This document shows, in pieces, positions 2,755 to 19,397 of a DNA stretch of 64,000 nucleotides. Source of the DNA: Bacteroidales bacterium (GTDB lineage Bacteria > Bacteroidota > Bacteroidia > Bacteroidales > UBA3824). The position numbers and the translations under genes are program-made. Every line of letters begins with the position of its first letter. The first letter of the stretch is position 1. The notes beneath the pieces were generated by a model. That model was not told the DNA's origin, did no database searches, and saw only the letters and a list, made by a program, of their open reading frames with translations. The stretch spans positions 101,171 through 165,170 of the forward strand of contig JAFPYR010000098.1 of assembly GCA_017412115.1 (NCBI GenBank), given 5' to 3'.

Positions 2755-2786
2755 GAAAAAAGTCAACATTAAAAACGAATTACAAA

Positions 2787-5081
2787 ATGAAAATAAATAG
2801 AATATTACCTGTTGCAGTATGTGGAGCATTGCTTTTCGCATCTTGCGACGACGACAAAATGGATTGGCACACGCCAGAAGGTCATACGCCAATATCATCC
2901 ATAGATGAAATTCCGCTTTCCACCGATGAGGCTATGGCAAATTATAAGTTCATCAAAGAATATATGGCGGAATATATGCCCGGTGTAACAATCGGACTTG
3001 GACTTGGTGCCGATAAGTTTCTTGAAGATGAACAATATCAAAAAGTTGCCGCCAACAATTTTCAGCAGTTTGTCACTGGCAACGCCATGAAATTTGGTTC
3101 GGTATGCAAGTCAAGCGGAAAATTGGATTTCACCAAAATCGACGATTTCATCGACAAAGCCAAAGAGTTGAATCCCGATGTTAAAATCTTTGGTCACAAC
3201 TTGCTTTGGCACACCCAACAGCCGCAAGTATATTTGAAAAGTTTGATTGCACCTTCATGGGTGGAAGATGGCGGCGGCGATTCTAAGGTCAACAACATAA
3301 ACGCCAACAGCGGATTCGACAATGGTACAACCGGTTATACTGGTCTTTGGGGAAAGTATACCTATGCTGTCGAGGAAGAGGACGGCAACAAAGTCATTCA
3401 TTTCACGATGACAAACGAGACCGCCAAAAACTATGATTCGCAGATGTTTTTTTCAACTGACGAACTTATTGAAGGCGAAACGTATGCATATTCTTTCAAA
3501 TGTAAGTCTGATGTTGGAATTACTGTGCAGTTCATGGGTCAAAATGCAGACTTTTCGGGTTTCTATGGCGAGTCGTACACGACGTCTGCCGAATGGAAGA
3601 CTTTTGAGGGCGAATATACATACACGGGCGAACCGGCTGGAATCACTAAAGTCGGTTTCCAATTTGGTGGCACGCCTGGCAGCAATGTATATTTTGATGA
3701 TTTCCAATTTGGTACACCCAAAAAGGATGCTATGAACAACATTGTTACTAACAGCGGATTCGACAATGGGACAACAGGTTACACTGGACTTTGGGGCAAG
3801 TACAACTATGCTGTTGAGGAAGAGGACGGAAACAATGTTATCCATTTTACGATGACTGACGAGACCGCCAAAAACTATGATTCGCAGATGTTTTGGTCTA
3901 CTGACGAACTTATCGAAGGCACTACTTATGCGTATTCGTTCCGCTCTAAATCCGATTTGGGCATCACGGTGCAGTTCATGGGTCAAAATGCAGGCTTTTC
4001 GGGTTTCTATGGCGAATCGTACACGACGACTGCCGACTGGAAGACTTTTGAGGGCGAGTATACATACACAGGCGAACCAGCAGGAATCACTAAAGTCGGT
4101 TTCCAATTTGGCGGTACGCCTGGCAGCAATGTATATTTTGATGATTTCAAATTTGGCGTCAAGAACGAAATATCAAAGAAAAAACTCATTTCAAAATCAG
4201 GCGTTTACGAACTCAAACCTTCCGACGAAAAGCAAACCGCCCTCCTTACCGCAATGGAGACATGGATTACCGATATGGTATCACACTGTAAGGAGAAAGG
4301 CAATGTAACCGAGTGGGACGTTCTTAACGAGGCAATTGGCGACGATAGCAAAATACGTGGCGTTGACGGTGGTTTTATGTCAGACGACGGACAGCCCACA
4401 GAATCTGAGACCGACGGCTTGAACCTCAACTGGGCATCCGACCATTTCTACTGGGGCTACTTCCTCGGCAAGGATTACGCTGTAAAAGCTTTCCAATTTG
4501 CAAGAGCAGCCGCAGGCGATGATGCAAAACTTTACATCAACGATTACAATCTCGAAACTTCGGATTCTAAACTTGAGGCTCTAATCAATTACGTAAAATA
4601 CATCGACGAGACAAACGGTAGCGCCATTGTTGACGGTATCGGAACTCAGATGCACATCATGAGTTTCAACCCCGACGACACCAAAAATGATGCTGCTAAA
4701 GAAGGCATAAAAAATATGTTTACAAAACTTGCCTCCACGGGTAAACTTGTACGTATCAGCGAGTTGGACGTAGCATTCACTTATACTCACGATGATGAAA
4801 CAAAAGTAAATCCATCCGCAGAACAGCTTCAAGCACAGGCGGATACGTATAAATTTGTGATAGAACAATACAAAGCTATAATTCCGACGGACCAACAAGG
4901 CGGTATTTGCATTTGGACACTCACAGATGCCGACGACGAACATGAATATTGGCTCAAAGGCGACAAACCAAATCTTTTCAACGCAGATTACAGCCGCAAA
5001 CCTGCCTACAAGGGAGTTTGCGACGGTATAGCCGGCAAAGATTTGTCAGCGGAATTCAATGGCAGTCAGTGGAGCAATTAG
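2787..5081 (+). CDS. GH10 endo-1,4-beta-xylanase lipoprotein, catalytic domain interrupted by two tandem carbohydrate-binding modules (CBM4/CBM22-like)
   Basis: Lipobox LLFASC. GH10 motifs lie on both sides of the insert: FGHNLLWHTQQP upstream; WDVLNEA (acid/base Glu region), YINDYNLE, GIGTQMH and ISELDV (nucleophile Glu region) downstream. Two ~148-aa repeats lie between them. Confidence 0.9.
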   Translation: MKINRILPVAVCGALLFASCDDDKMDWHTPEGHTPISSIDEIPLSTDEAMANYKFIKEYMAEYMPGVTIGLGLGADKFLEDEQYQKVAANNFQQFVTGNAMKFGSVCKSSGKLDFTKIDDFIDKAKELNPDVKIFGHNLLWHTQQPQVYLKSLIAPSWVEDGGGDSKVNNINANSGFDNGTTGYTGLWGKYTYAVEEEDGNKVIHFTMTNETAKNYDSQMFFSTDELIEGETYAYSFKCKSDVGITVQFMGQNADFSGFYGESYTTSAEWKTFEGEYTYTGEPAGITKVGFQFGGTPGSNVYFDDFQFGTPKKDAMNNIVTNSGFDNGTTGYTGLWGKYNYAVEEEDGNNVIHFTMTDETAKNYDSQMFWSTDELIEGTTYAYSFRSKSDLGITVQFMGQNAGFSGFYGESYTTTADWKTFEGEYTYTGEPAGITKVGFQFGGTPGSNVYFDDFKFGVKNEISKKKLISKSGVYELKPSDEKQTALLTAMETWITDMVSHCKEKGNVTEWDVLNEAIGDDSKIRGVDGGFMSDDGQPTESETDGLNLNWASDHFYWGYFLGKDYAVKAFQFARAAAGDDAKLYINDYNLETSDSKLEALINYVKYIDETNGSAIVDGIGTQMHIMSFNPDDTKNDAAKEGIKNMFTKLASTGKLVRISELDVAFTYTHDDETKVNPSAEQLQAQADTYKFVIEQYKAIIPTDQQGGICIWTLTDADDEHEYWLKGDKPNLFNADYSRKPAYKGVCDGIAGKDLSAEFNGSQWSN
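3290..4158 (+). repeat. Tandem 444-nt (148-aa) in-frame duplication encoding the two CBM modules of the GH10 gene
   Basis: aacagcggattcgacaatgg... at 3306 recurs at 3750. Both copies end in ggcagcaatgtatattttgatgatttc(c/a)aatttgg. Nucleotide similarity is high by eye, with long identical runs. Confidence 0.9.
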
Positions 5082-5517: not shown

Positions 5518-6495
5518 ATGGAAAAATACCTTAAAACACCGCAAGAAACGGCTCAATTGATTCTTTCCGGCAGAAAACTTTTACTTGCCGGAAACGAGGA
5601 TTTATTATCCAAACTTCCTCTTGGAGAATGGATTGCAGGAACTTCACCATATTTTATGGATATTGACGGTGGTCAAGTCTGTCAGGATAAAATTTTCGTA
5701 AACGATATTACTGATTTTCAAGAAGAAATATCAATAAAAGTCTATCAGGAAGATACTATCAAAAACATTTATAAAGATGGTTTTGATAATGGTTTTACGA
5801 TTTTAATAATTCCGCCATACAGTAACGTTCATACGGAATTTGCCGTTCATGCTCCTGATTATGAGGATTTTGCAACAAGACCGTTAATGGGTTGGGTTTC
5901 TTGTTATAGTTACTCTCAAGAAAATAAATCCGGCAAAACATTCTTTAAATCCGGCGATTCAGGCTCAAAAACAAATGCCGTGGCAATGCACGTAAAACTG
6001 CCAAAAAACAAATATGCCGAAATGGATTTAATAAATCTTTACACGCAAGGCTGCGGCGATGAAATCATATTTCTTGAAGACGGTTTTACTGCAAAAGAGG
6101 TTTTAATCAACGGCGAAAAACAAAACTTTGCCGAATATATCCGCCAAAAACACATTGATACGACATTGCCGATAGTCGCTAATTATAATTCTGCGATGAT
6201 AAATGTCAGCATCGACAGCCTCAGCGCAAATCAAGTAAACTTGCTTGCTCCCGTTTTCAAAGACGGAACATACCGCTTTGCAAAATCCATTGAAAACGTT
6301 GAAACTGATTTTCAAAAATTCGCCGTAAAAAACAACGTTAATCCCGTATTCGCTTCTATTTGCATTTTGCTGTATCATTACGCTAAACTTCAAGGCAAAC
6401 AATGCGGAAATATTTACGCACCGATAACATACGGTGAAATTTGTTATCAACTTGTAAATCAAACAGTTGTAACATTAGAAATAAAAGACGTTTAA
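5518..6495 (+). CDS. Hypothetical 325-aa cytoplasmic protein, possibly a FIST-like sensory fold
   Basis: Clean ORF with no signal peptide. The C-terminal end (FASICILLYHYAKLQG...APITYGEICYQLVNQTVVTLEI) resembles the FIST_C ending (sC.gR...GfytyGEi....hNqT). The assignment is by eye only. Confidence 0.6.
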   Translation: MEKYLKTPQETAQLILSGRKLLLAGNEDLLSKLPLGEWIAGTSPYFMDIDGGQVCQDKIFVNDITDFQEEISIKVYQEDTIKNIYKDGFDNGFTILIIPPYSNVHTEFAVHAPDYEDFATRPLMGWVSCYSYSQENKSGKTFFKSGDSGSKTNAVAMHVKLPKNKYAEMDLINLYTQGCGDEIIFLEDGFTAKEVLINGEKQNFAEYIRQKHIDTTLPIVANYNSAMINVSIDSLSANQVNLLAPVFKDGTYRFAKSIENVETDFQKFAVKNNVNPVFASICILLYHYAKLQGKQCGNIYAPITYGEICYQLVNQTVVTLEIKDV

Positions 6496-6513
6496 TAGAA
6501 AAAACAAAGAAAA

Positions 6514-7521
6514 ATGCAGTTATCCGATAAAAAATATGCCAAAAGGCTCAGAGATTTTGGTCTGAGCCTTGTCACGAAATACAAAAGCGGTGATAAAATT
6601 ATCGAAAAATCTTCTGAGGCAACACTTAACGAGGATATTGAAAACGGCATACGTCTTGAAAAAAACTATTTGCGCGGCGGAAATTCCGTTTTCAAACTTT
6701 TCAATTTTGACCCGAGAATCAAATACACTTTTATAAATCCTGCAAAGAGAAAAAGTTGCCCGAATTGCGGTGCTGACATTGATTCTCAAAGCGGAGAATG
6801 TCCTTATTGCGGAACTGCTTACAACATGGATTACGAGTCAAAAAATCTCGGCGCAAAATATCACACCGACCTTGTAATGCACTCGGGAACTTACAAAAAA
6901 ATTACGTTAATAATTGATATAATTATCAGTTTTATAATAAGTTACATCTACATCAAAACCACAGGACGAACTTTCAACGGTTGGGATTTTTCCAAAGTTT
7001 TGGTAGGAACAGCACTTTTGTCTTTGGCGTTTTATTACATTTTTTATTATTTGGATTCGTTTTTTATACTCTTGCCGATAAAAATTTACAAAGAAAAAAT
7101 CAATGCCGCTCAAGAAAAATTTTGGGCGGAAAACTCATCTCAAATCAACAAAAATACTTTTTTCAACAATCTCAATTACGAATTGCAAAAGTATTATTTT
7201 GAAGGCGAAAAAACGAAAAACGTTTTGGATTTTGATTTCGTGGATTACACCACAATTTCTAAAGAGGAATTTAACGGAGAAAAAATTATTAATATCGAAA
7301 TTTTGGTACGTGAAGTTTTCATTGACGCCGGCAAAATCAAAAGCCGTCAAAACGATTTGAAACTCAAACTAAAACACGTTAAAAGAGAATATTCCTTGGA
7401 AAATGCGGGCGGAGTTGCCCTAAGATGCAAAAACTGCGGTACTTCGATAGATGCTTTTTTGACTGAATGTCCGAGTTGCGGCACCCGTCAAAACTATCTT
7501 CAAGAATGGTATCTCGTTTAA
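6514..7521 (+). CDS. Double zinc-ribbon polytopic membrane protein, hypothetical
   Basis: There are two CxxC-x(n)-CxxC ribbons: CPNCG..ECPYCG (6757-6810) and CKNCG..ECPSCG (7426-7482). Hydrophobic segments lie between them (ITLIIDIIISFIISYIYI; VLVGTALLSLAFYYIFYYLDSFFILLPI). A possible Tim44/NTF2-like region follows the TM block. Confidence 0.7.
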   Translation: MQLSDKKYAKRLRDFGLSLVTKYKSGDKIIEKSSEATLNEDIENGIRLEKNYLRGGNSVFKLFNFDPRIKYTFINPAKRKSCPNCGADIDSQSGECPYCGTAYNMDYESKNLGAKYHTDLVMHSGTYKKITLIIDIIISFIISYIYIKTTGRTFNGWDFSKVLVGTALLSLAFYYIFYYLDSFFILLPIKIYKEKINAAQEKFWAENSSQINKNTFFNNLNYELQKYYFEGEKTKNVLDFDFVDYTTISKEEFNGEKIINIEILVREVFIDAGKIKSRQNDLKLKLKHVKREYSLENAGGVALRCKNCGTSIDAFLTECPSCGTRQNYLQEWYLV

Positions 7522-7983: not shown

Positions 7984-8029
7984 AAAAAAAAAACACCGGC
8001 ACTATCCCTCTTATTAAAATGCCGGTGTT
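7984..8029 (-). terminator. Rho-independent terminator reading on the minus strand
   Basis: aacaccggca (7992-8001) and tgccggtgtt (8020-8029) form a perfect 10-bp stem. On the minus strand it is followed by a ~10-nt T-run (the A-run 7984-7993 on plus). It lies 70 nt downstream of the micro-ORF stop. Confidence 0.65.
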
Positions 8030-8099
8030 AAAAATCAAACATGTGTTTGAAGACTTGTCTATCTGATATATCCATAATCAATATTTACATAACTAATTA

Positions 8100-8240
8100 T
8101 CAATCACGGAATACCAAACTTTCACCTTCAATAGTAAAACTATTTTTACGGTTCTTAAATTCATTGAATTTAGTAACACCGTTAAAAACTGCCATCACAA
8201 CAATAGCAAGCAATACAAAGAATAAAATAGCTGCATTCAT
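8100..8240 (-). CDS. Micro-ORF encoding a 46-aa single-pass membrane peptide (below the 60-aa cutoff of the ORF track)
   Basis: Hand translation of the minus strand gives MNAAILFFVLLAIVVMAVFNGVTKFNEFKNRKNSFTIEGESLVFRD*. It has a hydrophobic N-terminal helix and a charged tail, and is flanked by a -7-like motif (8293-8300) and the terminator at 7984-8029. Confidence 0.4.
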   Translation of the reverse strand: MNAAILFFVLLAIVVMAVFNGVTKFNEFKNRKNSFTIEGESLVFRD

Positions 8241-8292
8241 AATCAAAATCGTTTTTTTAAAAGGTTAATACTAAAGTTTACTAATCACGTTA

Positions 8293-8438: not shown

Positions 8439-8446
8439 TAAATTTG
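8439..8446 (+). promoter_or_regulatory. Candidate -7 element (taaatttg) for the helicase operon
   Basis: It matches TAnnTTTG with its 3' end 26 nt upstream of the ATG at 8472. Confidence 0.4.
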
Positions 8447-8471: not shown

Positions 8472-11400
8472 ATGATACAACTGAAAGCCGGATATTTCAC
8501 AAACGCAATGGACTCTCTCAGGAGTAATGCTTCTATCGAGAAAAAAGTAAAACTTCTGATGGAACAACTCTCCTATTTCGATTTGGAGAGCAACATCGAA
8601 ATCAAAGACGAATGTTCCGATGCGGCAACCGCACTATTATATAATATAGTCTCAAGAGGTACGCCGACTTATCCTTCGCAATTTATCGAAGATATTCTTT
8701 CAACCACAATCGGCAAAACTCTCAAAAGAATTTCCAAAGACGGAACTATTTTCAGAGAAATTCCCAAACGTGAAGTTCAAGACTTGGTTTTCAGAGCCTT
8801 ACACGTTATAGAACCGAGGCAAAAAGCCGAAAAATCAACCTCTGAAGACCCAAGACTGCAATTCATTTACGATTACATAACCTACGGAGCGGTTTTCTCT
8901 CAAGGCGATTATATTTGGCAATTAGCGGAAATTGACAGAATTTTTTTGAACATTTTTAAATATTCCAAAAAATTCCGCCGCAATTTAAAAGTCCTGAAAG
9001 CAAATCCCGAATATGATTTTTTGAACGAAAAATGCGATTTGAGTTTCAGCGCACCGTATAGCGAAAATACCGCCGATTGTATCACTTACGGTTTCAATCT
9101 TGACGACTCACTCGTTGATACAACGGACTGGATTAGAGAAAATATGATTTCTTCACTGCTCAACAAAATTAACATCACGGGCAGAGTAATTATCAAGAAA
9201 TCAGACATTTTGTCGCACAAAACGGACGAGTTGAATTATTTCACGCAAAATCCGTATTTCGATATTGTAAGAGATAATTATAATTCGCCGCTTTTCAATT
9301 CGGAAGACGGTATTGAAGCCTTGCAGATAGCATTAACACCGCTGGCAATAGCAAGAATCCAAAAAGTAATTCTTGAGGCCGTTAATTCGGGCGCACTTTT
9401 GCTCTCTGCCAAAACTTGGAAAATCGGCGTCATCGAAAGGGACGTTCCGTGCGCTTTTTTGGCATTAGAGGATTTGAAACAACATTTCAACAAGTTTTTC
9501 ACGCTCGAAAACTGCGCCAGAAAATTTCCTAACGTTAAACTCGAAATCTTTCATACTCAGGAATTTGCAGAGACGGAATTAAATCTCCTTTATCAAGGCA
9601 GCCGTGAGGATATTTCGGAGTTTGACGAAAACAAAGAATACGATTTGCTAATTGATATTTCGGTTTTAAGCAGATTTTCGTTCAACAACGAAATTCCCAA
9701 AACGAAGTCGAAAAAATACGCCGTTATCCGTTCGGCAAAATCGCCGTCGGTTCAGACAAAACTTTTAAAGGCAAGTTATATTCATTATGATATAGATTTA
9801 ACGTTTCCGCAAGAGGAGGAAGATGACAACGAGGAGAATTTCAACGAGCAGGAAGATGCTTTGAAATTTTTCTTAAAAAACCTTTTCGGCAAAAACGATT
9901 TCCTTAAAGGTCAGGCAAAAAGTATCAGCGAACTTCTTAACGGAAACAATCTTCTGCACATCTCGCCCCCGGGTACAGGCAAGACATTAATTTCGCTTTT
10001 TGCCTCACTTATGAAACCGGGTTACAGTTTTGTTTTGTCGCCGACGATTGCCGTTATGGATATGCAATTCGATATGCTCAGGGACAGAAAAATCGACATC
10101 GATTATTATCTGAATCCGGCTCTTCAAAACTCTTTGGACAGAGATTTGGCAGCCCGCAGCGTAACGCAAGGCAGAAGTCTGATAACGTTTTTTTCGCCCT
10201 CGCTGATTCACGACCCGTATATCAGAAAAATCTTCAAACAGATTGATTCTAAGGCAATTCCGATATACTACATAATGCTTGACGAGGCGCAAAGAATCTC
10301 GCTGCAAACATCGGATTTCAGACCTTATTATCAGGATATAAAAAACATAATAGCAAAGAATTTTTCCGACGAAAACATCAACACGCTCAGAATCGGTGCG
10401 TTCACTTCAACGCCCGAAAAAAACATTCAAAACGAAATAGTTCAAAAACTTCAAATTGATTGCATTGAGAGTGTTAATGCCGAAAATATCGGAAAAATTA
10501 ACTTATCCGTTCACGAAATTCAGATGAAAGGTGCCGGCAATACTGACGATTTGCAGGCATACGCAAAAAAACTGAAACAAGTTCAGACGGAAAAAATTTT
10601 AACACTGACAAAAAATCAAAATTTAAAAGCGCTAATTTACTCCTTGCAATGTCCTTTCGATAAAAACGAAAACTCACAAATCAGCGGTTTCAAGGCTGAT
10701 TATTACGAAGGCGACATTGTAGAATTAGACCGTCAAATCACAAGTTCTCAAGCACTTGAGGGACGAAGAGCGTTCAAGAATTTCAAAGACGGTGCCTCTA
10801 AAATCCTTGCAGCCTCACGCTCCATTGGAACGGGAATAAGAGTCAAGGATTTAACTGACATTATCTATTTTGAACCGCCGCTTTCTCTTGAAAGTTTTTG
10901 CAGAATGAACGGCAGAGGCAGTTTGGATTCCGAAATTAAAGTAAATCTTCTGCTTAACATTTCGGACAAAGATTTTGCCGGTTTTGAATCCATAAGGGAC
11001 GACAACGGAAAACTTACAACGGCAGAAAACATCACGGCTACGGATTTTGATACGGCTGCTAATCTTCAAAACCTTCTTAATCAAAACCCCGGCCCGGAAA
11101 AAGAAAAAATCATTCTTAAAGAAATTTTAAACGGCGTTTCTTTCCCGCAATATTCTTTAAGACAGATAGTTACTGATGCTGTTTTTAACGAGTTCGGCTT
11201 TGAAATTCAGACCGAAACCGAACCGGCATACAATCCGAACAGTCTGTACATTTATACGCAACAAAAAACTAAAAGTTTAGGCTTTATCAATTTCAAGGAC
11301 AATTCTTTGAATATGCCTGAAATGCAGTACGATAAAGAAATATCGGAAAAAGTTCAAACTTTTATTTTGGATTTGATTAACAATTCCACCGACAATCCTC

Positions 11401-12554
11401 TTGCGTACCTTTCTGTTATGGAAACCGAACAGTCTGCGGAAGAAAACGACGGTATTCAAACAGCTTTGGACGCCGTTATGGAAGGTCAAAAGGCAAAAAT
11501 AATCATACCTTTTTATAATGACGTTTTCCGCGAAGGTGCTCAAATGTTAAATTCAATACTCGGAACGAACGCCTCGGCAACGATTTTAAGACGTTGTTAT
11601 TCAAAGACTTTCAATTATGACGAGTTTGAAAAAATTTTAGCGAAGGATTATGAAATAAGAATTAAAAATCTCGGCGAAGGAATACGCCTGGCTTTCATAG
11701 AATTATACAACAAATTCAGAAACAAGGCTGACACCTTGAGAGCAATTTCAAGGCTCAAAGAAATAGATTTGATTGACGATTATTTGATTAATCCGGCAAA
11801 AGAAGAAATCGAGGTTTATGTTACAAAACATAACAAAGATTTCTACAAAATGAAACTCATGCCCGTTTTGCAAAGAAATTTAACAAGAGAGAAAATGCTT
11901 TTGTATTTTTCCGGCATTGAGGAAGAGAAATTTTTAAGTCTTGAAAAATACACCGACACGCTGATAGATTTTTTCTACACGGAGGTTTATCCGCTTTACG
12001 AAAGGGCGGCAAAAGATTCGGGAAAATTTTTCCGCACCGTTTTGGAAAAACAAAAAGACGGCACTTTAACGCAGGAAGAAATTATGAAAAACCTTCAAAA
12101 CTATTTCGTATCGCGTTATAAATGTGGTTTTGTCTGCGACGAAATTCCCGAAAATGCCGATAAAGTAGACGGAGTTTTGTATCTTATCGACAAGGCGGGC
12201 AGCAATTTAAATGAGCTGACAAGTCTTAGAGAATCCGTCAGCGAAAGCCAAAAAGCAAATTCAACACCGGCTGACAAAATAATGTACGGTTATTGCAAAC
12301 TTTTCACGGGCGCAAACAGCGATTATGAAAACCGTTTTGAGGCTTATCAGTCGATAAGCGAGGGGTTGTCACAAATCAGAGAAAACGAGCCCGAGGAAAA
12401 TTTCATCAACAACCTTGACAGCATTACTGAAAAGATTGCCGGTGAAAATTACGATTTAAAAGAGGAATCTCAAGCCGTACTGTTGATGAAAATTCAGCAC
12501 AACTGGTTGAAACGGTTTAATTCCAAAGTTTTAAAAATTAACGAAAGAAAATAA
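8472..12554 (+). CDS. 1360-aa RecQ-like superfamily-2 helicase with ~490-aa N-terminal and ~530-aa C-terminal regions of unknown function
   Basis: RecQ-ordered motifs are present: motif 0 FLKGQ (~9900), motif I PGTGKT (9969-9986), Ia VLSPTIAVMDMQ, II DEAQ (10281-10292), III AFTSTP, V/VI AASRSIGTGIRV...EPPLSLESFCRMNGRGS (10899-10922). An acidic linker QEEEDDNEENFNEQED precedes the core. No Cys-rich Zn/RQC/HRDC region follows it. Confidence 0.85.
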   Translation: MIQLKAGYFTNAMDSLRSNASIEKKVKLLMEQLSYFDLESNIEIKDECSDAATALLYNIVSRGTPTYPSQFIEDILSTTIGKTLKRISKDGTIFREIPKREVQDLVFRALHVIEPRQKAEKSTSEDPRLQFIYDYITYGAVFSQGDYIWQLAEIDRIFLNIFKYSKKFRRNLKVLKANPEYDFLNEKCDLSFSAPYSENTADCITYGFNLDDSLVDTTDWIRENMISSLLNKINITGRVIIKKSDILSHKTDELNYFTQNPYFDIVRDNYNSPLFNSEDGIEALQIALTPLAIARIQKVILEAVNSGALLLSAKTWKIGVIERDVPCAFLALEDLKQHFNKFFTLENCARKFPNVKLEIFHTQEFAETELNLLYQGSREDISEFDENKEYDLLIDISVLSRFSFNNEIPKTKSKKYAVIRSAKSPSVQTKLLKASYIHYDIDLTFPQEEEDDNEENFNEQEDALKFFLKNLFGKNDFLKGQAKSISELLNGNNLLHISPPGTGKTLISLFASLMKPGYSFVLSPTIAVMDMQFDMLRDRKIDIDYYLNPALQNSLDRDLAARSVTQGRSLITFFSPSLIHDPYIRKIFKQIDSKAIPIYYIMLDEAQRISLQTSDFRPYYQDIKNIIAKNFSDENINTLRIGAFTSTPEKNIQNEIVQKLQIDCIESVNAENIGKINLSVHEIQMKGAGNTDDLQAYAKKLKQVQTEKILTLTKNQNLKALIYSLQCPFDKNENSQISGFKADYYEGDIVELDRQITSSQALEGRRAFKNFKDGASKILAASRSIGTGIRVKDLTDIIYFEPPLSLESFCRMNGRGSLDSEIKVNLLLNISDKDFAGFESIRDDNGKLTTAENITATDFDTAANLQNLLNQNPGPEKEKIILKEILNGVSFPQYSLRQIVTDAVFNEFGFEIQTETEPAYNPNSLYIYTQQKTKSLGFINFKDNSLNMPEMQYDKEISEKVQTFILDLINNSTDNPLAYLSVMETEQSAEENDGIQTALDAVMEGQKAKIIIPFYNDVFREGAQMLNSILGTNASATILRRCYSKTFNYDEFEKILAKDYEIRIKNLGEGIRLAFIELYNKFRNKADTLRAISRLKEIDLIDDYLINPAKEEIEVYVTKHNKDFYKMKLMPVLQRNLTREKMLLYFSGIEEEKFLSLEKYTDTLIDFFYTEVYPLYERAAKDSGKFFRTVLEKQKDGTLTQEEIMKNLQNYFVSRYKCGFVCDEIPENADKVDGVLYLIDKAGSNLNELTSLRESVSESQKANSTPADKIMYGYCKLFTGANSDYENRFEAYQSISEGLSQIRENEPEENFINNLDSITEKIAGENYDLKEESQAVLLMKIQHNWLKRFNSKVLKINERK

Positions 12555-12569
12555 AAAAATACAACTGAT

Positions 12570-13265
12570 ATGAGAGAATTGATTGACAAAGAGTTACTGC
12601 AATTACAGAAAGACCTTGAAAATTTGCAGTCTGCCGCAGAAATGATTTCGCAAGCGGGAACGGCTTCTGACAGCGTAATCAAAGAGGCAAAAAACATTCA
12701 TCAGGAATTTTCTAAAAATTTGGAAAAACTGACGAATATATATCAGCAGTATATTCAGCAGATTAACGAAAAATCCGAGAAAAAGCAAGACGAGATAGGA
12801 AATACTATCAACAAACTCGCCAAAGCATCGGAGGATAGACTCTCTGAACAGGCTAATCTCTTAAAAAACAACGCTCAAGAGGCGTTAAGCAAAATAGAAT
12901 TAGTAAAATCCGTTTATCTCAAACAGACTGAAAAAACGGACAGTTTATTAAATTCTTATTTGGAATTAGCACAAAGCACAACCGAACTGAAAGACAAAAT
13001 TTCGGGCATAGATTTTCCAGCCCGTCTTGACAAAATGTCTTCAGAGGTCAAAGAGATTAGTCAAAAACAAGACAAAAATAATGCTGAAATCGAAAAACTC
13101 AGCAATCTGATAGCACAGGATAAAGCGTTGAAACAAACCCAAAGCAACGGCAAAAGTTTGAAATCCATAAAAGCAATGGTTTGGATTTTGTTCATTATGT
13201 CGCTCCTGACTATATCCGGTCTTGTTTTTATGATGTACAAAAGCGGAATACGATTATCGTTTTAA
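12570..13265 (+). CDS. Tail-anchored coiled-coil protein (231 aa), hypothetical
   Basis: It starts 15 nt after the helicase stop. About 200 aa are heptad-like, K/E/Q/L-rich sequence, followed by a single C-terminal TM segment (AMVWILFIMSLLTISGLVFMMY). There is no signal peptide. Confidence 0.75.
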   Translation: MRELIDKELLQLQKDLENLQSAAEMISQAGTASDSVIKEAKNIHQEFSKNLEKLTNIYQQYIQQINEKSEKKQDEIGNTINKLAKASEDRLSEQANLLKNNAQEALSKIELVKSVYLKQTEKTDSLLNSYLELAQSTTELKDKISGIDFPARLDKMSSEVKEISQKQDKNNAEIEKLSNLIAQDKALKQTQSNGKSLKSIKAMVWILFIMSLLTISGLVFMMYKSGIRLSF

Positions 13266-13294
13266 GTAAAAAAAAGTTCAACAAATAAAAAAAA

Positions 13295-13335
13295 CCGCAT
13301 TTCCTTTTTCCCTTAAAAGAAGTGCGGTTTTTATT
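13295..13335. terminator. Bidirectional terminator between convergent genes
   Basis: ccgcatttc (13295-13303) pairs with gaagtgcgg (13319-13327) with one mismatch. An A-run lies upstream and a T-run downstream. Confidence 0.6.
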
Positions 13336-13340
13336 GTTTT

Positions 13341-14588: not shown

Positions 14589-15488
14589 ATGAAACCGACA
14601 CTTGTAGTATTAGCAGCAGGAATGGGTAGCCGTTACGGCGGACTCAAACAAATAGACAAATTAGGTCCTTCAGGACAAGCAATCCTCCAATATTCGTGTT
14701 ACGATGCAGCACGAGCTGGATTCGGAAAAGTAGTTTTCGTAATCAGACGCGACATCGAAAAGGATTTTAAAGACGTTATTATTTCAAAAGTTAAAAAATC
14801 AATCAATTGCGAATATTGTTTTCAGGAGAAAAACGATTTGCCGGAAGGTTTTACGCTGCCTGAAACAAGAGAAAAACCGTGGGGTACCGCTCATGCAGTT
14901 TTAGCAGCAAGAAAAAACGTTATGGAACCTTTCGCAGTTATCAACGCTGACGATTTTTACGGAAAAGAAGCATATCAGACAATTGCAGATTACTTCAAAA
15001 CCATGCCCAAAAACATCACAAATCAATATTGCATGGTCAGTTATCCCGTTAAAAACACACTTTCGGAATACGGAACAGTTTCAAGAGGTATTTGCAACAC
15101 TGATTCTGAGGGCAATCTTACTACCGTTGTCGAAAGAACCAAAATTATCCGCGAAAACGGTAAAATCGTTTTCATCGAAGGCGACGAAAAAACCGAAATT
15201 GCTGAAAATACTCCCGTTTCTATGAATTTCTGGGGATTCACTCCAAGTTTCTTCAAACATTTGGAAGATGCTTTCAAAGAATTTCTCAAAGAAAACATCG
15301 ACAAACCAAAAGCAGAATTCCTTATTCCATGGGTAGTTGATAAACTCATTAAAAACAAAACCGCTCAAACCAAAGTTTTGACAAGCGATGCTCAATGGTT
15401 TGGTGTAACTTACAAAGAAGACTGCCCCGCCGTTGTTCAGAAATTCCAAGATTTAACCGATAAAGGTGAATATCCGGCTGATTTTTAG
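14589..15488 (+). CDS. Sugar-phosphate nucleotidyltransferase family protein
   Basis: N-terminal LAAGMGSRYGGLKQ nucleotide-binding loop, plus PWGTAHAV and INADDFYG. Confidence 0.75.
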   Translation: MKPTLVVLAAGMGSRYGGLKQIDKLGPSGQAILQYSCYDAARAGFGKVVFVIRRDIEKDFKDVIISKVKKSINCEYCFQEKNDLPEGFTLPETREKPWGTAHAVLAARKNVMEPFAVINADDFYGKEAYQTIADYFKTMPKNITNQYCMVSYPVKNTLSEYGTVSRGICNTDSEGNLTTVVERTKIIRENGKIVFIEGDEKTEIAENTPVSMNFWGFTPSFFKHLEDAFKEFLKENIDKPKAEFLIPWVVDKLIKNKTAQTKVLTSDAQWFGVTYKEDCPAVVQKFQDLTDKGEYPADF

Positions 15489-15513
15489 TTGATTAACAAC
15501 AATAATTTTCAAG

Positions 15514-15547
15514 AGCGCGAAAAAGATTTTTTTTTCGCGCTTTTTTT
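15514..15547. terminator. Terminator between convergent genes
   Basis: agcgcgaaaaa and tttttcgcgct form a perfect 11-bp stem with a 6-nt loop and a T-run. Confidence 0.7.
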
Positions 15548-15550
15548 ATT

Positions 15551-16603
15551 TCAAAATTTGACATTCAACGTAAAAATATTGGAATTTCTCTCGATAGAAT
15601 TGTCAGAGAAAAAAGTATAATCAAAACCGAAACGAAAAAATTTTACCCCTAAACCAAACGAAGGCCGCATTGAAAATTTTTTACTGATTATTAAATTGTT
15701 GTTTTTCTGAAAATCAGAAAATCCGAAACGCAAAAAAATCATATCGGAATATGAAATCTGAGACCCGAACTTCAAATCCGCCGAAAAATGTTTTGAATGT
15801 ATTAAATAATAAGTGTCAGAATCGAAAAAAGTTTTCACGGCAAAAGCGCACAAAAACTTAAAACCATATAAATTCCAATAATACGATGCGCCTAAATCCA
15901 AAGTAACAGGAGTAATTTCTAAAGAATTTTCCGGCACTGAATTGCCCGTTGAAAGGTATACGGAATCAAATTCGTTTTTGTTTACGCTCCAAAAATCAAA
16001 AGTCGTCGTAACATCTTTCAAAACCATTGATGCAGAAAATTTTTTGTGAGAATAAGTTGCCCCTATGTCAAAACCGAAACCGTAAGCATCAGCAAATTTT
16101 CCTTGATGACGGTAAATCAGTTTCATGGAAGCTCCTAATGAAATTTCAGGAAAAAATTTAAGTTTTCTTGACACATCGAAAAAAAACGCATAATCAGCAA
16201 CCGAAAAATACGAAATCCTTGAATAATCCATATTCCCGTTATCAAAAAGATAAATCGTATTTTGAATATCATCGACCGCAAAACGCACCGCCCCGAAACC
16301 TAAAAAAGTCGAAGTGTCAGCACGAAAAGCCGCCGAAAAAAGTTGCAAAGAGGCAAGGGACGAAAAATAATCGGAATGCATCAAAGAAAAATCCGTTTTA
16401 TAATCTTCAAAAACAAGCCCCGAAGGATTGTTAAAAACCGATTGCGAACCCGAAAACAGCATAAAATCAGCTCCGCCCATAGAAACTCCACGAGAAAAAA
16501 CCGCTGTCGAGAGATAATCGTTAGCGTATTTAACTATTTGTGCATCAGCGTTATAGACGTTAAGAAAAATTAAAAACGCTGTTATGTAAAAAAAAAGTTT
16601 CAT
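15551..16603 (-). CDS. Outer-membrane beta-barrel protein, PorQ/PorV (T9SS-associated, FadL-like) family candidate
   Basis: Signal peptide ending in ADAQ. The N-terminal YLSTAVFSRGVSMGGADF...NNPSGL resembles the PorV/PorQ signature (FL.i..dAR..GMGgA...NPA). The sequence has alternating beta-strand character and a terminal Phe. Confidence 0.5.
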   Translation of the reverse strand: MKLFFYITAFLIFLNVYNADAQIVKYANDYLSTAVFSRGVSMGGADFMLFSGSQSVFNNPSGLVFEDYKTDFSLMHSDYFSSLASLQLFSAAFRADTSTFLGFGAVRFAVDDIQNTIYLFDNGNMDYSRISYFSVADYAFFFDVSRKLKFFPEISLGASMKLIYRHQGKFADAYGFGFDIGATYSHKKFSASMVLKDVTTTFDFWSVNKNEFDSVYLSTGNSVPENSLEITPVTLDLGASYYWNLYGFKFLCAFAVKTFFDSDTYYLIHSKHFSADLKFGSQISYSDMIFLRFGFSDFQKNNNLIISKKFSMRPSFGLGVKFFRFGFDYTFFSDNSIERNSNIFTLNVKF

Positions 16604-16743
16604 AAAAACCGTTAATAAATTTTTACAAAATTAAAAAAAACACGAACTTTGTCCCAATAAAAACGGCAAAATAAAAAGTTTGAATAAAAAAATGGTCTTA
16701 TATTTGCTATTAAAAAAGTACAACAAGTATAGAAAAATAGAAA

Positions 16744-17580
16744 ATGTCGAGATTTATAAGTAAATTAAAATTTGTGCCGAGTCTGTTGACCTGTTCAAGC
16801 GCATTTTGCGGAATAATGGCAACGGTTTTGGCTTTGGAAGGCGAAAAAAGCCTCGTTTATGCAGCATATTTTATTTTGGCTGCTGCCGTATTCGATTTTA
16901 GCGACGGTTTTGCAGCGAGATTGTTGCACGCTGCCTCCGAATTAGGCAAACAACTTGATTCTTTGGCTGATGCAATAAGTTTCGGTGTTGCACCTACTGC
17001 CATAATGTATCAACTTTTAAAACAAGCTCTCCATATAAGCGGCAAAATGTTTGATGCTCCTTTTTGGAAAATCGCAGTATTAATGAGTGCAGCTCTGATT
17101 GCAGTATTCGCGATTTTAAGGCTTGCAAAATTCAACATCGACCCCGAACAATCGCATAGTTTCAAAGGGTTGGCTTCGCCGGCTTGTGCAATTTTCGTTG
17201 CCTCGATAGCTCTGATTGAACCTATGGTTCCTGAAGATTTTTGGATTTTTAAATTGGCGCACGCTATTTGGGAGGTAAATTTCCCCTACAAATTGGAGTT
17301 TGCCCTTATCGGACTTGAGGTTTATGTTTGCCGCAATTGGCATTGGCTTTTACCGATGTGCATTTTTATCGCATCAATGATGATTACTAATTTGCCGATG
17401 TTTTCGCTCAAACTCAAAAACGTTAAATACAAAGAAAATAAAGTGGTTTTCAACTTCATAATATGTTCGGTAATATTGATTATACTCCTCAAATGGATTG
17501 CTATTCCGCTCATTATACTGCTTTATATTTTAATCTCGTTCATACTTTGGTTAGACAGCAGAAAAAAAACGACAAAATAA
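16744..17580 (+). CDS. pssA: CDP-diacylglycerol--serine O-phosphatidyltransferase (CDP-alcohol phosphatidyltransferase family)
   Basis: DGFAARLLHAASELGKQLDSLAD is an exact D-G-x2-A-R-x8-G-x3-D-x3-D motif. The protein is polytopic membrane. Confidence 0.8.
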   Translation: MSRFISKLKFVPSLLTCSSAFCGIMATVLALEGEKSLVYAAYFILAAAVFDFSDGFAARLLHAASELGKQLDSLADAISFGVAPTAIMYQLLKQALHISGKMFDAPFWKIAVLMSAALIAVFAILRLAKFNIDPEQSHSFKGLASPACAIFVASIALIEPMVPEDFWIFKLAHAIWEVNFPYKLEFALIGLEVYVCRNWHWLLPMCIFIASMMITNLPMFSLKLKNVKYKENKVVFNFIICSVILIILLKWIAIPLIILLYILISFILWLDSRKKTTK

Positions 17581-17610
17581 TTTTTTCTTCTTTTTGAAAA
17601 AAGTCTTAAA

Positions 17611-17669
17611 CTAAAAAATAAAACGGAGGCGAAAAAAAATCTGCCCCCGTTTTATTTTTTAGTTTTTTT
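17611..17669 (+). terminator. Rho-independent terminator after pssA
   Basis: ctaaaaaataaaacgg (17611-17626) and ccgttttattttttag (17647-17662) form a perfect 16-bp stem followed by a T-run. Confidence 0.75.
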
Positions 17670-17751
17670 AAATTATTTTTACAGTCCAAAAAATTCAATT
17701 TTCCATTATCAAAACATCTAAGTAATTAAAACACGAAAAAACTTAAATGAC

Positions 17752-18678: not shown

Positions 18679-18704
18679 TTTTTTTTTCAGTTATAATTTT
18701 TGCA

Positions 18705-19391
18705 ATGTTAAAAAGAAGTTTAGTCTTTAGTGCGCTGATTTACTTATCATTAAGTCTTTCAGCGCAAACTAAACCAAGAATTTCAATTCTTGGGGATTCG
18801 TATTCAACATTTGAGGATTACATTCCCCAAGGAAATGAAACTTGGTATTTTCAAAAGCTTGACACCAACCGCACCGATGTAAACGATGTTCGGCAAACTT
18901 GGTGGTGGCAACTCATTAAAAACGGAGGATTCCTTTTAGAAAAAAATGAATCGTACAGCGGTGCAACAATCTCTTACACCGGCTACAACGATGAAGATTA
19001 TTCTCCAAGATCGTTCATAACACGCCTTCCAAGGCTCGGAAGTCCCGATATTTTACTAATTTTCGGTAGCACAAACGACAGCTGGGCAGGCGTTAAAACA
19101 GGAGATTATTGTTATGAAAATTTTACACGGGGCGATCTTTATTTTTACCGTCCCGCCCTTGCAAAACTTCTAAACGATGCCCTTTGTCGCTATCCCAATG
19201 TTAAAATTTATTTCATCATTAACAGCGAGTTACGCAAAGACATCGTAGAATCAACTGAAACAATTTGCAAGCATTACGGTGTAAAATACATTCAACTCAA
19301 AAACATCGACAAACATTGGGGACACCCAACAATCAAAGGTATGAAAGCAATTTCAGACCAAGTTTCAGAGATTTTAAAGAAAGATTTGTAA
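18705..19391 (+). CDS. SGNH/GDSL-family hydrolase (esterase/lipase-like)
   Basis: Signal peptide, block I ISILGDSYS, GSTNDSW, and a C-terminal DKHWGHP (DxxH-like). Confidence 0.75.
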   Translation: MLKRSLVFSALIYLSLSLSAQTKPRISILGDSYSTFEDYIPQGNETWYFQKLDTNRTDVNDVRQTWWWQLIKNGGFLLEKNESYSGATISYTGYNDEDYSPRSFITRLPRLGSPDILLIFGSTNDSWAGVKTGDYCYENFTRGDLYFYRPALAKLLNDALCRYPNVKIYFIINSELRKDIVESTETICKHYGVKYIQLKNIDKHWGHPTIKGMKAISDQVSEILKKDL

Positions 19392-19397
19392 AATACA

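What the first reader, a model, noticed from the sequence alone, without database searches (positions are those of the whole stretch)
8472..13265. Giant RecQ-like helicase with two large unassigned domains, paired with a tail-anchored coiled-coil protein: candidate undescribed defence or genome-surveillance module
Seen in sequence. The 1360-aa ORF has a complete RecQ-ordered SF2 core. The motifs are motif 0 FLKGQ, Walker A PGTGKT at 9969-9986 (Lys504), Ia VLSPTIAVMDMQ, DEAQ at 10281-10292, III AFTSTP, and V/VI ...IGTGIRV...CRMNGRGS at 10899-10922.

It has none of the Cys-rich Zn-binding, RQC or HRDC regions that follow the core in housekeeping RecQ. Instead the core sits between two unassigned regions:
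- An N-terminal region of about 490 aa, ending in the acidic linker QEEEDDNEENFNEQED and containing a Rossmann-like strand/helix pattern (WKIGVIERDVPCAFLALEDLKQ...VKLEIFHTQ...YDLLIDISVL).
- A C-terminal region of about 530 aa that is largely helical.

Fifteen nt downstream lies a 231-aa protein. It is almost entirely coiled coil, with one C-terminal TM helix and no signal peptide, so it is tail-anchored. The pair has its own -7-like promoter element (8439-8446) and a bidirectional terminator (13295-13335).

Established knowledge: canonical bacterial RecQ is roughly half this size, and large accessory-domain helicases are core components of several anti-phage systems (Hachiman, Druantia, Zorya).

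Inference: I do not recognise a RecQ-like helicase plus tail-anchored coiled-coil pairing as any named system, so this may be a new two-gene module.
Basis: partly seen in the sequence, partly recalled or inferred. Interest (0 to 1): 0.8.

Follow-up and report, generated by a model that had tools for sequence, protein, structure and literature searches.

The report
Remodelled nuclease-helicase with membrane-anchor partner
This conserved two-gene unit (a giant RecQ-like helicase plus a membrane-anchored coiled-coil protein) belongs to an unnamed family whose intact members carry a DNA-cutting domain and sit among bacterial anti-virus genes, but this copy has lost the cutting and unwinding residues and is still strongly conserved.

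Summary
Both ORFs, every quoted motif coordinate, the tail-anchored coiled-coil partner and the terminator are real.

The pair is a genuine conserved module. The partner lies directly downstream in 49 of 51 non-identical loci. These span Bacteroidota, Ignavibacteriota, Calditrichota and Cloacimonadota, with rare outliers. The family is rare: 56 of 185,579 species genomes, and about 544 clusters at 50% identity.

- The N-terminal region is not wholly unassigned. In intact relatives, aa ~150-250 is a Vsr/DUF559-type endonuclease, so the family is a nuclease plus RecQ-like helicase.
- The window copy is catalytically remodelled. It has lost the nuclease Glu/Asp/His, the DEAH histidine, the aromatic-rich loop, and the motif VI Gln and second Arg. 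It keeps only Walker A and the DE of Walker B.

All its domains are nevertheless under strong purifying selection (dN/dS about 0.07).

Intact relatives sit in defence islands (inside BREX, or next to DISARM, type III R-M, GmrSD, reverse transcriptases). The window copy sits among housekeeping genes.

The best-conserved segment, an "IERDVP" alpha/beta domain, models confidently but matches no known fold or family.

Verdict: an undescribed candidate defence family, and this locus is its non-catalytic, vertically maintained branch. No function has been tested.

The parts
8100..8240 (-). Small divergent ORF of 46 aa (N-terminal TM helix, conserved C-terminus SFTIEGESLVFRD). Possible third, clade-specific component.
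   Evidence: homologous 46-48 aa ORFs occupy the same divergent position in L011, L001/L002, L012, L013 and L014, although the genes further upstream differ. Sequence read.
8439..8446 (+). Bacteroidetes-type -7 promoter-like element TAAATTTG, 25 nt upstream of the ATG.
   Evidence: The motif is present, but the pattern is frequent in this AT-rich window (107 found against 81 expected), so this is weak evidence on its own.
8472..12554 (+). 1360-aa multidomain protein: degenerate Vsr-like nuclease region, IERD domain, RecQ-like SF2 core and C-terminal region.
8919..9221 (+). aa ~150-250: remnant of a Vsr/DUF559/MTES_1575-type endonuclease domain. D189 is kept; the catalytic Glu, Asp and His are replaced (CDLSFSAPY...ITYGFNLDDSLVD).
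   Evidence: 9 of 42 relatives hit PF18741 at 6.6e-8 and PF04480 at 3.6e-7; the window copy hits none. (alignment). (top PDB hit of the intact-member profile is 3HRL, an endonuclease-like protein, matching the IEIDGxQH...RD...GW..R motif, E = 0.53)..
9234..9746 (+). aa ~255-425: the most conserved segment of the family. It has a kinked long helix (L288, P290, R295) and a Rossmann-like sheet with invariant W316, I318, I321, E322, R323, D324, V325, plus D391, D395 and S397. Fold unassigned.
   Evidence: invariant columns. (pLDDT above 90). (no sequence or structure match). (ERD intact in 116 of 123 representatives).
9867..10961 (+). aa 466-830: RecQ-like SF2 core. Walker A GTGKT and Walker B DE are kept. 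The motif II His, the aromatic-rich loop, motif V and the motif VI Gln and second Arg have diverged.
   Evidence: DEAD, Helicase_C; RecQ, DpdF and PsyrT models match the core only and below their cut-offs..
10962..12551 (+). aa 831-1360: family-specific C-terminal region, mostly helical, with a winged-helix-like element at aa ~1049-1118 (nt 11616-11825; conserved R1083, D1087, T1088).
   Evidence: conservation. (AF2 pLDDT 88.1, secondary structure). (no PDB or Pfam match).
12570..13265 (+). 231-aa tail-anchored coiled-coil partner. It has a conserved N-terminal helix (INxELxxLQxEL...), the central motif LLxxYxELAQSTxEL...DFPxRLD, a variable-length coil, and a C-terminal TM helix (aa ~203-225, nt 13176-13244).
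13285..13337 (.). Bidirectional intrinsic-terminator-like hairpin between the partner gene and the convergent metallophosphoesterase gene.
   Evidence: -19.8 kcal/mol, z = -6.3, 0 of 200 shuffles fold as well.

Best explanation
The locus is a member of an undescribed two-gene family.

Gene 1 encodes a protein of about 1350 aa. Its ancestral, intact form is a Vsr/DUF559-type endonuclease, then an invariant "IERDVP" alpha/beta domain, then a RecQ-like SF2 helicase, then a family-specific C-terminal region. Gene 2, often translationally coupled to gene 1, encodes a cytoplasm-facing coiled coil held in the inner membrane by a C-terminal TM helix.

Intact members reside in defence islands. They most likely act as a membrane-tethered nuclease-helicase that engages and cuts invading DNA (inferred).

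The window copy belongs to a rumen Bacteroidales branch in which the nuclease catalytic residues and the helicase coupling residues have been replaced, while the P-loop and Walker B DE remain. All domains and the partner are under strong purifying selection, and the genes sit among housekeeping genes.

This copy therefore cannot work by Vsr-type cutting or canonical RecQ unwinding. It most likely acts as a membrane-tethered, nucleotide-binding, DNA- or partner-binding complex. Its conserved activity would reside in the IERD domain and the coiled-coil interaction. It is either a non-nucleolytic immune sensor or scaffold, or a domesticated cellular function.

Shown: architecture, pairing, distribution, motif loss, selection and genomic contexts.
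Inferred: DNA targeting, membrane tethering of the helicase by the partner, and any immune role.
For: Pairing:
- The partner lies directly downstream in 49 of 51 non-identical loci, with gaps from -98 to +212 nt.
- Three of three distant partner homologues follow a family helicase with an 11-nt overlap.
- No third gene is universally conserved.

Distribution:
- 56 loci in 185,579 species genomes, all MAGs. Most are from the FCB group, plus single Gammaproteobacteria, CPR, Lachnospiraceae and Chloroflexi.
- 544 clusters at 50% identity carry the N-terminal domain, nearly always at the N-terminus of 1250-1450 aa proteins.

Nuclease domain:
- Pfam MTES_1575 and DUF559 match 9 of 42 relatives.
- The motif DF...IEIDGxQH...RD...GW..RI is present in intact members.
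- 3HRL is the top PDB hit of the intact-member profile.

Motif census of 123 representatives: 53 fully intact, 36 with both activities degenerate, 20 helicase-only, 7 nuclease-only. Nuclease and helicase loss are correlated (Fisher p = 5e-10). The ERD triad is intact in 116 of 123.

Window copy: both activities degenerate.

Selection: dN/dS between the window and L011 is 0.067 for the helicase gene (0.04-0.09 per domain) and 0.069 for the partner. Other pairs in the clade give 0.05-0.19.

Defence contexts of intact copies:
- L051: between BrxC and PglX.
- L046: followed by DISARM DrmA/DrmB.
- L039: type III R-M.
- L047: C5 methyltransferase.
- L010 and L067/L068: reverse transcriptase and HisKin-conflict/iREC/TBP-TOTE genes, plus GmrSD in L010.
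- L072: PglZ and BrxL. L073: SNF2, an MmeI-like enzyme and GmrSD. L074: Eco57I-type enzyme, SMC-like ATPase and a Schlafen-like protein. L076: CSD protein, methyltransferase and SNF2.

Housekeeping contexts of degenerate copies: window, L001-L003, L008.
Against: - No experiment exists for any member. The defence role rests on guilt by association.
- Defence-gene adjacency was scored on a limited and partly hand-picked set of loci. No genome-wide background rate was computed.
- In one Bacteroidales clade, helicase-intact copies share synteny with a PD40-OmpA gene and rpoBC. The family can therefore be stably chromosomal even when the helicase is active.
- Walker A/B retention means this copy may still hydrolyse ATP. 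"Non-catalytic" is inferred from sequence only.
- The IERD domain's function is unknown.
- PADLOC-DB is from 2023. A name given to the system later could have been missed.
Confidence: 0.6

Rival explanations
1. One reading: this very locus is an active, self-contained anti-phage or anti-plasmid system whose effector is a fully functional RecQ-type motor.
For: - Walker A GTGKT and Walker B DE are intact, and the motif order is RecQ-like.
- The helicase core matches the PADLOC DpdF and PsyrT models (1e-25 and 2.5e-22).
- The pair is conserved.
- Intact relatives lie in defence islands.
Against: - The motif II His, the aromatic-rich loop Trp/His, motif V, and the motif VI Gln and second Arg are all replaced relative to the family consensus.
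- The nuclease Glu, Asp and His are lost.
- The neighbours are polysaccharide-utilisation and lipid or nucleotide-sugar genes.
- No mobile-element signatures were found.
- dN/dS of about 0.07 and conserved synteny in the clade are atypical of fast-turnover defence genes.
Confidence: 0.2
2. Abortive-infection variant: the large protein is only a sensor. The coiled-coil/TM partner is the effector, oligomerising to permeabilise the membrane (holin-like) when the sensor is triggered.
For: - A single-pass TM with an oligomerisation-prone coiled coil.
- A weak PHROG holin match (E = 0.0067, aa 155-216).
- The system persists in lineages without nuclease or helicase catalysis, as expected if the killing activity lies elsewhere.
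Against: - The TM segment is the least conserved part of the partner, and the extracytoplasmic tail is 0-15 aa.
- The holin match is not significant.
- Intact members retain a nuclease, which is a sufficient effector.
- No toxicity data exist.
Confidence: 0.15
3. Lineage-specific housekeeping factor (DNA repair, recombination or chromosome-membrane tethering) that only resembles defence helicases. The defence-island neighbours of relatives are coincidental.
For: - Housekeeping neighbourhoods with conserved synteny: NIF3, Zn_ribbon_9 and SecDF; rpoBC and PD40-OmpA. The PD40-OmpA gene occurs in 15 loci across two clades.
- Strong purifying selection.
Against: - Present in only 56 of 185,579 species genomes, and scattered across phyla.
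- At least ten independent intact loci are embedded in or next to BREX, DISARM, R-M, GmrSD, reverse-transcriptase or conflict systems.
- A nuclease-helicase fusion with a Vsr-like domain is a recurrent defence architecture.
Confidence: 0.12
4. Decaying relic: the genes are pseudogenising remnants with no function.
For: Catalytic residues of two enzymatic domains are lost.
Against: - Both ORFs are intact.
- dN/dS is 0.04-0.19 in every domain and in the partner, at dS up to about 1.7.
- The IERD domain is invariant.
- The partner is retained.
Confidence: 0.03

Closest known systems
Hhe (Gao et al. 2020 single-gene system: helicase plus Vsr-like endonuclease)
   Same: A helicase fused to a Vsr/DUF559-type endonuclease. 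In Hhe the nuclease Glu is needed for defence (E1731A abolishes activity; bioRxiv 10.1101/2022.06.16.496414). Intact members of the present family have the same DF...E.DG..H signature.
   Different: - From my own knowledge, not tested here: Hhe's motor is an SF1 (AAA_11/AAA_12, DUF4011) helicase with a C-terminal nuclease and no partner.
- Here the motor is SF2 and RecQ-like, and the nuclease is N-terminal.
- There are extra IERD and C-terminal domains and an obligatory membrane-anchored partner.
- No PADLOC Hhe model matched the window protein.
- The window copy lacks the catalytic Glu.
PsyrTA / RqlHI (RecQ-like helicase toxin plus antitoxin) and DpdF of the Dpd 7-deazaguanine system
   Same: RecQ-like SF2 core. 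These are the best PADLOC matches (DpdF 1.1e-25, PsyrT 2.5e-22).
   Different: - The matches cover only the core (aa ~457-847) at low scores.
- NCBIfam DpdF scores 21 bits against a cut-off of 550.
- The partner is a coiled-coil TM protein, not PsyrA.
- No dpd genes are nearby.
- The flanking domains are unrelated.
Zorya (ZorAB membrane complex with a long cytoplasmic coiled-coil tail, plus the ZorC/ZorD nuclease-helicase; PMC11946911)
   Same: The concept is similar: a membrane-embedded component with a long cytoplasmic coiled coil, combined with a soluble helicase-nuclease that acts on invading DNA.
   Different: - There is no MotAB-like stator. The partner has one TM helix and only chance-level matches to ZorA coiled coils (E 0.09-0.96).
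- The helicase is RecQ-like, not Snf2-like.
- The system has two genes rather than four.
Housekeeping bacterial RecQ (TIGR01389 / TIGR00614)
   Same: Motif order 0-I-Ia-II-III-V-VI. Intact relatives have the RecQ-specific DEAHCxSxWGHDFR and QExGRAGRD motifs.
   Different: - Scores are far below the cut-offs (95 against 640; 75 against 220).
- There are no RecQ_Zn_bind, RQC or HRDC matches and no Cys cluster.
- It is about twice the size of RecQ, with nuclease and IERD domains and a membrane partner.
- Its distribution is rare and patchy.

Membership tests
RecQ family helicase (NCBIfam TIGR00614 / TIGR01389) | Whole-protein HMM score at or above the curated cut-off | tested here: not met
   recQ scores 95.1 bits against a cut-off of 640.2. 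recQ_fam scores 74.8 against 219.8. The matches cover only aa 467-826.
RecQ family helicase (NCBIfam TIGR00614 / TIGR01389) | Motif II DEAH followed by the aromatic-rich loop (SxWGHDFR), and motif VI QxxGRxGR | tested here: not met
   the window has DEAQRISLQTSDFR and RMNGRGS. Intact relatives (for example L045 and L036) do have DEAHCVSEWGHDFR and QEAGRAGRD.
RecQ family helicase (NCBIfam TIGR00614 / TIGR01389) | Zn-binding, RQC and HRDC modules after the core | tested here: not met
   no Pfam RecQ_Zn_bind, RQC or HRDC match; no Cys or His between aa 820 and 960. A winged-helix-like element exists, but it could not be tested against RQC.
PsyrTA (RqlHI) | PsyrT-type RecQ-like toxin paired with a PsyrA antitoxin gene | tested here: not met
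   the PsyrT model matches the core only (77 bits, aa 461-829). The neighbouring gene has no PsyrA hit and is a coiled-coil TM protein.
Dpd system (DpdF) | DpdF equivalog score, and other dpd genes nearby | tested here: not met
   NF041063 DpdF scores 21.3 bits against a cut-off of 550; no dpd-type neighbours.
Hhe | Vsr/DUF559-type endonuclease fused to a helicase | tested here: inconclusive
   the domain is present with an intact signature in relatives and degenerate in the window copy. The helicase class is RecQ-like SF2; that Hhe's helicase is SF1 comes from my own knowledge. No Hhe model appears among the PADLOC hits for the window protein.
Zorya | ZorA/ZorB MotAB-like membrane complex | tested here: not met
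   only chance-level ZorA coiled-coil matches (E 0.087-0.96). The partner has a single TM helix.
Anti-phage defence system (generic operational definition) | Enrichment next to known defence genes (defence islands) | tested here: inconclusive
   Met qualitatively for intact relatives: L010, L039, L046, L047, L051, L067, L072, L073, L074 and L076. Not met for the window locus. No background-corrected statistic was computed.
Anti-phage defence system (generic operational definition) | Experimental protection against phage or plasmid | not testable with these tools
No paper describing the pair was found.

The most novel reading that the evidence does not exclude
This would be an undescribed two-gene immune system, found mainly across the FCB superphylum (about 500 clusters at 50% identity). 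In it, a Vsr-nuclease/RecQ-helicase is tethered to the inner membrane by a tail-anchored coiled coil. A large branch, which includes this locus, has lost both cutting and unwinding residues yet is kept under strong purifying selection. That would imply a mechanism, immune or newly domesticated, that needs neither activity. It would centre on the invariant, confidently folded "IERDVP" domain, which matches no known structure.
Probability: 0.35. Interest if true: 0.8.

Novelty: new variant of a known kind. Interest (0 to 1): 0.62.

Why it matters
- If intact members protect against phages or plasmids, this adds a new nuclease-helicase defence family in which a one-helix coiled-coil protein would place the effector at the membrane, where foreign DNA enters. 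It would be a much simpler counterpart of Zorya.
- The family is concentrated in Bacteroidota and allied phyla, including gut and rumen lineages, where defence systems have been characterised much less than in E. coli.
- The correlated loss of both enzymatic activities under strong purifying selection is a natural experiment. It could show what the invariant IERD domain and the partner do on their own, and how an immune module becomes a pseudoenzyme or is domesticated.
- Both the IERD domain and the C-terminal region give confident models with no structural neighbour, so they are candidates for new folds or functions.

Tried and rejected
- Plasmid DNA search with the locus found no match.
- Profile searches of the N-terminal, C-terminal and partner regions against PDB sequences gave nothing significant. 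The partner gave only generic coiled coils.
- Foldseek of both AF2 models against the PDB, and of the N-terminal model against BFVD, gave no hit with E <= 1e-3. There were only scattered weak Rossmann, SIS, methyltransferase and PD-(D/E)xK-like matches. I considered Toprim, PIN, receiver and methyltransferase readings of the IERD domain and dropped them, because none appeared among the structural hits.
- A word-indexed profile search with the N-terminal alignment returned only 5 fragments. The exhaustive phmmer search was informative instead.
I worked around this by aligning window fragments to full-length homologues.
- Two guessed sets of neighbour proteins scanned against PADLOC failed to locate which loci carry the CBASS cyclase/E1-E2 and retron-type reverse-transcriptase hits seen in the pooled scan. 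Those hits stay unassigned to a locus.
- The sigma-70 promoter and simple terminator scans were uninformative for a Bacteroidetes sequence.
- No tRNA, Rfam family or flanking repeats mark a mobile-element boundary.
- Literature searches for a RecQ-like helicase with a TM or coiled-coil partner found no description.
- The pseudogene reading was rejected on dN/dS.


Full report
OBSERVATION

The window holds an ATG-initiated 1360-aa ORF at 8472-12554 (+). A 231-aa ORF follows 15 nt later at 12570-13265 (+).

Pfam sees only DEAD (aa 480-653) and Helicase_C (aa 713-815). NCBIfam RecQ models match the core far below their cut-offs (95 against 640 bits; 75 against 220). PADLOC matches only DpdF and PsyrT models, and only over aa ~457-847.

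The second protein is a coiled coil. Its only database matches are generic helical bundles. It has one C-terminal hydrophobic helix and a short tail.

The TAAATTTG element at 8439-8446 exists, but the pattern is common in this window (107 matches against 81 expected). The hairpin at 13285-13337 is a strong terminator-like structure (-19.8 kcal/mol, z = -6.3).

THE PAIR IS A CONSERVED MODULE

A full-length search found 87 homologues of 1300-1400 aa, down to 23% identity. A scan of one genome per species found 56 loci in 185,579 species. All are MAGs. Most are Bacteroidales or other Bacteroidota, with Ignavibacteria, Kapaibacterium, Chlorobiota, Calditrichaceae, Cloacimonadota and Rhodothermales. 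Single loci come from Competibacteraceae, Beckwithbacteria, Lachnospiraceae and Chloroflexi. L011, a sheep-rumen Bacteroidales MAG, is 97% identical to the window copy.

An HMM of the downstream protein finds a homologue immediately downstream of the helicase in 49 of 51 non-identical loci that have at least 700 bp of downstream sequence. The gaps run from -98 to +212 nt, and many are overlapping stop/start pairs. The two exceptions are L037 and the truncated L061.

The reverse test also holds. Three distant partner homologues on long contigs each follow a 1534-1556 aa family helicase.

All-against-all clustering of the neighbours found no third universally conserved gene.

The partner alignment shows four features:
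- a conserved N-terminal helix;
- an indel-rich coiled coil;
- a conserved LLxxYxxLAxxTxxL...DFPxRLD motif;
- basic residues followed by the TM helix.

FAMILY SIZE AND ARCHITECTURE

An exhaustive phmmer search with aa 1-465 found 544 clusters at 50% identity (417 at E <= 1e-10). Almost all are 1250-1450 aa proteins with the domain at the N-terminus. A few have an N-terminal extension of about 270 aa. The N-terminal region is therefore essentially exclusive to this architecture.

WHAT THE FLANKING REGIONS ARE

AlphaFold2 models are confident: N-terminal aa 1-465 has pLDDT 92.1 and pTM 0.92, and C-terminal aa 831-1360 has pLDDT 88.1 and pTM 0.84. Neither has a Foldseek match with E <= 1e-3 in the PDB, and the N-terminal model has none in BFVD. 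PDB sequence-profile searches were also empty.

Scanning the N-terminal regions of 42 relatives one by one against Pfam changed the picture. Nine hit MTES_1575 (PF18741, best 6.6e-8) and nine hit DUF559 (PF04480, best 3.6e-7). Both are Vsr-like PD-(D/E)xK endonuclease families. The window copy hit nothing.

The alignment shows why. Intact members carry QRxDFxxEFPY...KGIxIEIDGxQH...Q..D..RD...GW...RI at window aa ~186-245. The window has CDLSFSAPYSENTADCITYGFNLDDSLVD, which keeps D189 but has lost the Glu, Asp and His.

A profile of intact members puts 3HRL ("endonuclease-like protein") on top of the PDB, aligned on exactly this motif. The hit is weak overall (E = 0.53). The weak PD-(D/E)xK, VRR-NUC, DUF4297 and Can2 structural hits agree with this reading.

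The C-terminal model contains a helix-helix-helix-hairpin element (aa ~1049-1118; conserved R1083, D1087, T1088). It looks like a winged helix, but I inferred this from secondary structure only. There is no Cys/His cluster for a RecQ zinc domain.

The most conserved segment of the whole family is aa ~255-425, with invariant L288, P290, R295, W316, I318, I321, E322, R323, D324, V325, F365 and D395. It matches nothing known.

CATALYTIC REMODELLING

Column-by-column comparison shows that intact clades have textbook RecQ motifs: PTGGGKS, DEAHCVSEWGHDFR, GMGIDKPN and QEAGRAGRD. The window clade has PPGTGKT, DEAQRISLQTSDFR, GTGIRV and RMNGRGS. Other Bacteroidales clades have lost even Walker A and B.

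I took a census of 123 cluster representatives of at least 1150 aa:
- 53 have nuclease (D-E-D-H) and helicase (motifs I, II, VI) intact;
- 36 have both degenerate;
- 20 have only the helicase intact;
- 7 have only the nuclease intact.

Loss of the two activities is strongly correlated (odds ratio 14.7, p = 5e-10). The E-R-D triad is intact in 116 of 123. The sample is ranked by similarity to the window's N-terminus, so these proportions are not unbiased.

The window copy falls in the both-degenerate class, and keeps only Walker A and the DE of Walker B.

It is not decaying. dN/dS against L011 is 0.067 for the helicase gene (0.04-0.09 in each of four segments, including the dead nuclease and the core) and 0.069 for the partner. 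Five other pairs in the clade give 0.05-0.19, at dS up to about 1.7.

GENOMIC CONTEXT

Intact copies are embedded in defence islands:
- L051 lies between BrxC and PglX of a BREX cluster.
- L046 is followed directly by DISARM DrmA/DrmB.
- L039 follows a type III R-M system (all three).
- L047 lies beside a C5 methyltransferase.
- L010 lies next to GmrSD. L010 and L067/L068 both lie next to reverse transcriptases and HisKin-conflict/iREC/TBP-TOTE genes.
- L072 follows PglZ and BrxL.
- L073 follows SNF2, an MmeI-like enzyme and GmrSD.
- L074 follows an Eco57I-type enzyme, an SMC-like ATPase and a Schlafen/AlbA_2 protein.
- L076 precedes a CSD protein, a methyltransferase and SNF2.
- L007 sits among IS66/rve transposases and a toxin-antitoxin pair.

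Pooled PADLOC scans of 231 neighbour proteins also found a CBASS cyclase with E1-E2, retron-type reverse transcriptases, PDC-S01 and PDC-M16A. I could not assign these hits to loci.

Degenerate copies sit among housekeeping genes:
- The window lies between SGBP-B/GH10 polysaccharide-utilisation genes with DUF6976 and a Zn-ribbon protein upstream, and metallophosphoesterase, nucleotidyl-transferase and CDP-alcohol phosphatidyltransferase genes downstream.
- L001-L003 lie between NIF3/Zn_ribbon_9 and SecDF.
- L008 lies among LptF/G, AnmK and similar genes.

A PD40-OmpA gene is syntenic in 15 loci across two clades. One clade with an intact helicase lies beside rpoBC, with a variable hot spot downstream carrying BrnT and AAA_15/DUF4276.

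There are no tRNAs, Rfam hits or flanking repeats at the window locus.

INTERPRETATION

The family is a nuclease plus RecQ-like helicase with an obligatory tail-anchored coiled-coil partner. Three things make an anti-mobile-element role the best explanation for the intact form:
- recurrent embedding in defence islands;
- a rare and patchy distribution;
- a nuclease-helicase architecture.

By analogy with Zorya (PMC11946911, found) and Hhe (10.1101/2022.06.16.496414), I infer that the partner tethers or regulates the enzyme at the membrane. The RecQ-like motor would feed DNA to the Vsr-like nuclease. None of this is shown.

The window copy cannot use the Vsr site and lacks the residues that couple ATP hydrolysis to unwinding in RecQ. 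That role for the aromatic-rich loop and motif VI comes from established knowledge of E. coli RecQ, not from a test here.

Because all domains and the partner remain under strong constraint, I read this copy as a functional, non-nucleolytic derivative. It would be a membrane-tethered nucleotide- and DNA-binding complex whose key activity lies in the IERD domain and the partner interface. Whether that function is still immune or has been domesticated cannot be decided here. I lean slightly towards domestication, given the synteny and the low dN/dS.

COMPARISON WITH KNOWN SYSTEMS, AND NOVELTY

The locus fails the membership tests for housekeeping RecQ, PsyrTA, Dpd and Zorya. It shares with Hhe only the idea of a Vsr-nuclease plus helicase. 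No model in PADLOC 2023, Pfam 2025 or NCBIfam 2026 covers the N-terminal, IERD or C-terminal regions or the partner. Four literature searches found no description.

I rate it a new variant of a known kind: a nuclease-helicase defence module with an unusual membrane anchor and an unusual pseudoenzyme branch.

Caveats:
- There are no experiments.
- Every member found in the one-genome-per-species scan is a MAG, and the rest are metagenome contigs or MAGs.
- The defence association is not background-corrected.
- Newer defence catalogues could not be queried.

Noticed in passing
window 8100-8240 (-), with a hairpin at ~7995-8030: A 46-aa ORF (MNAAILFFVLLAIVVMAVFNGVTKFNEFKNRKNSFTIEGESLVFRD) with an N-terminal TM helix, transcribed divergently from the helicase. 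Homologous 46-48 aa ORFs occupy the same position in L011, L001/L002, L012, L013 and L014, even though the genes further upstream differ. It may be a clade-specific third component. The mechanical + strand ORF 8041-8268 is probably spurious.
   Followed up: partly
window 5518-7521 (+): A DUF6976 protein (325 aa, E = 1.5e-113) is followed by a 335-aa protein with two zinc-ribbon motifs. Both are of unknown function. They lie just upstream of the module but are not conserved with it in other loci.
   Followed up: no
window 1276-5081 (+): Polysaccharide-utilisation-type genes: an SGBP-B-like surface glycan-binding protein (xyloglucan-binding domain plus TIG) and a GH10 xylanase with CBM4_9 inserts. 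This is consistent with a rumen Bacteroidales origin.
   Followed up: no
L051 15131-21581 and L076 5735-14574: In two unrelated intact loci the pair is followed by a 1256-1411 aa protein with an N-terminal cold-shock domain, then a PglX-like methyltransferase (PADLOC PglX in L051; Pfam N6_N4_Mtase only in L076). L051 has BrxC upstream and L076 has an SNF2 helicase downstream. This recurrent arrangement could be a larger composite system.
   Followed up: partly
L010 14970-23972 and L067 1013-18873: The pair is twice adjacent to reverse transcriptase, HisKin-conflict, iREC, TBP-TOTE and DUF7017 conflict-system genes. This could be coincidence within an island or a functional linkage.
   Followed up: no
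L054, L059, L060 (1650-1750 aa) and L067, L069, L071 (1534-1556 aa): Two subfamilies differ in size. One has an extra N-terminal extension of about 270 aa. The other has an insertion of about 130 aa between helicase motifs III and V. Neither addition has been characterised.
   Followed up: no
L004-L006, downstream of the pair (about 15000-24000): Three metagenome contigs carry the identical helicase but differ just downstream: BrnT toxin, AAA_15 plus DUF4276, and repeated HTH/peptidase_C39 cassettes. A small MazG-like gene is always kept next to the partner, and is found in 9 loci overall. The site behaves as a variable hot spot.
   Followed up: partly
window aa 261-314 of the helicase (nt ~9252-9413): There is a weak match (E = 6.6e-5) to PHROG 29897, a phage protein family of about 109 aa with unknown function. 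It covers the conserved kinked helix just before the IERD sheet.
   Followed up: no
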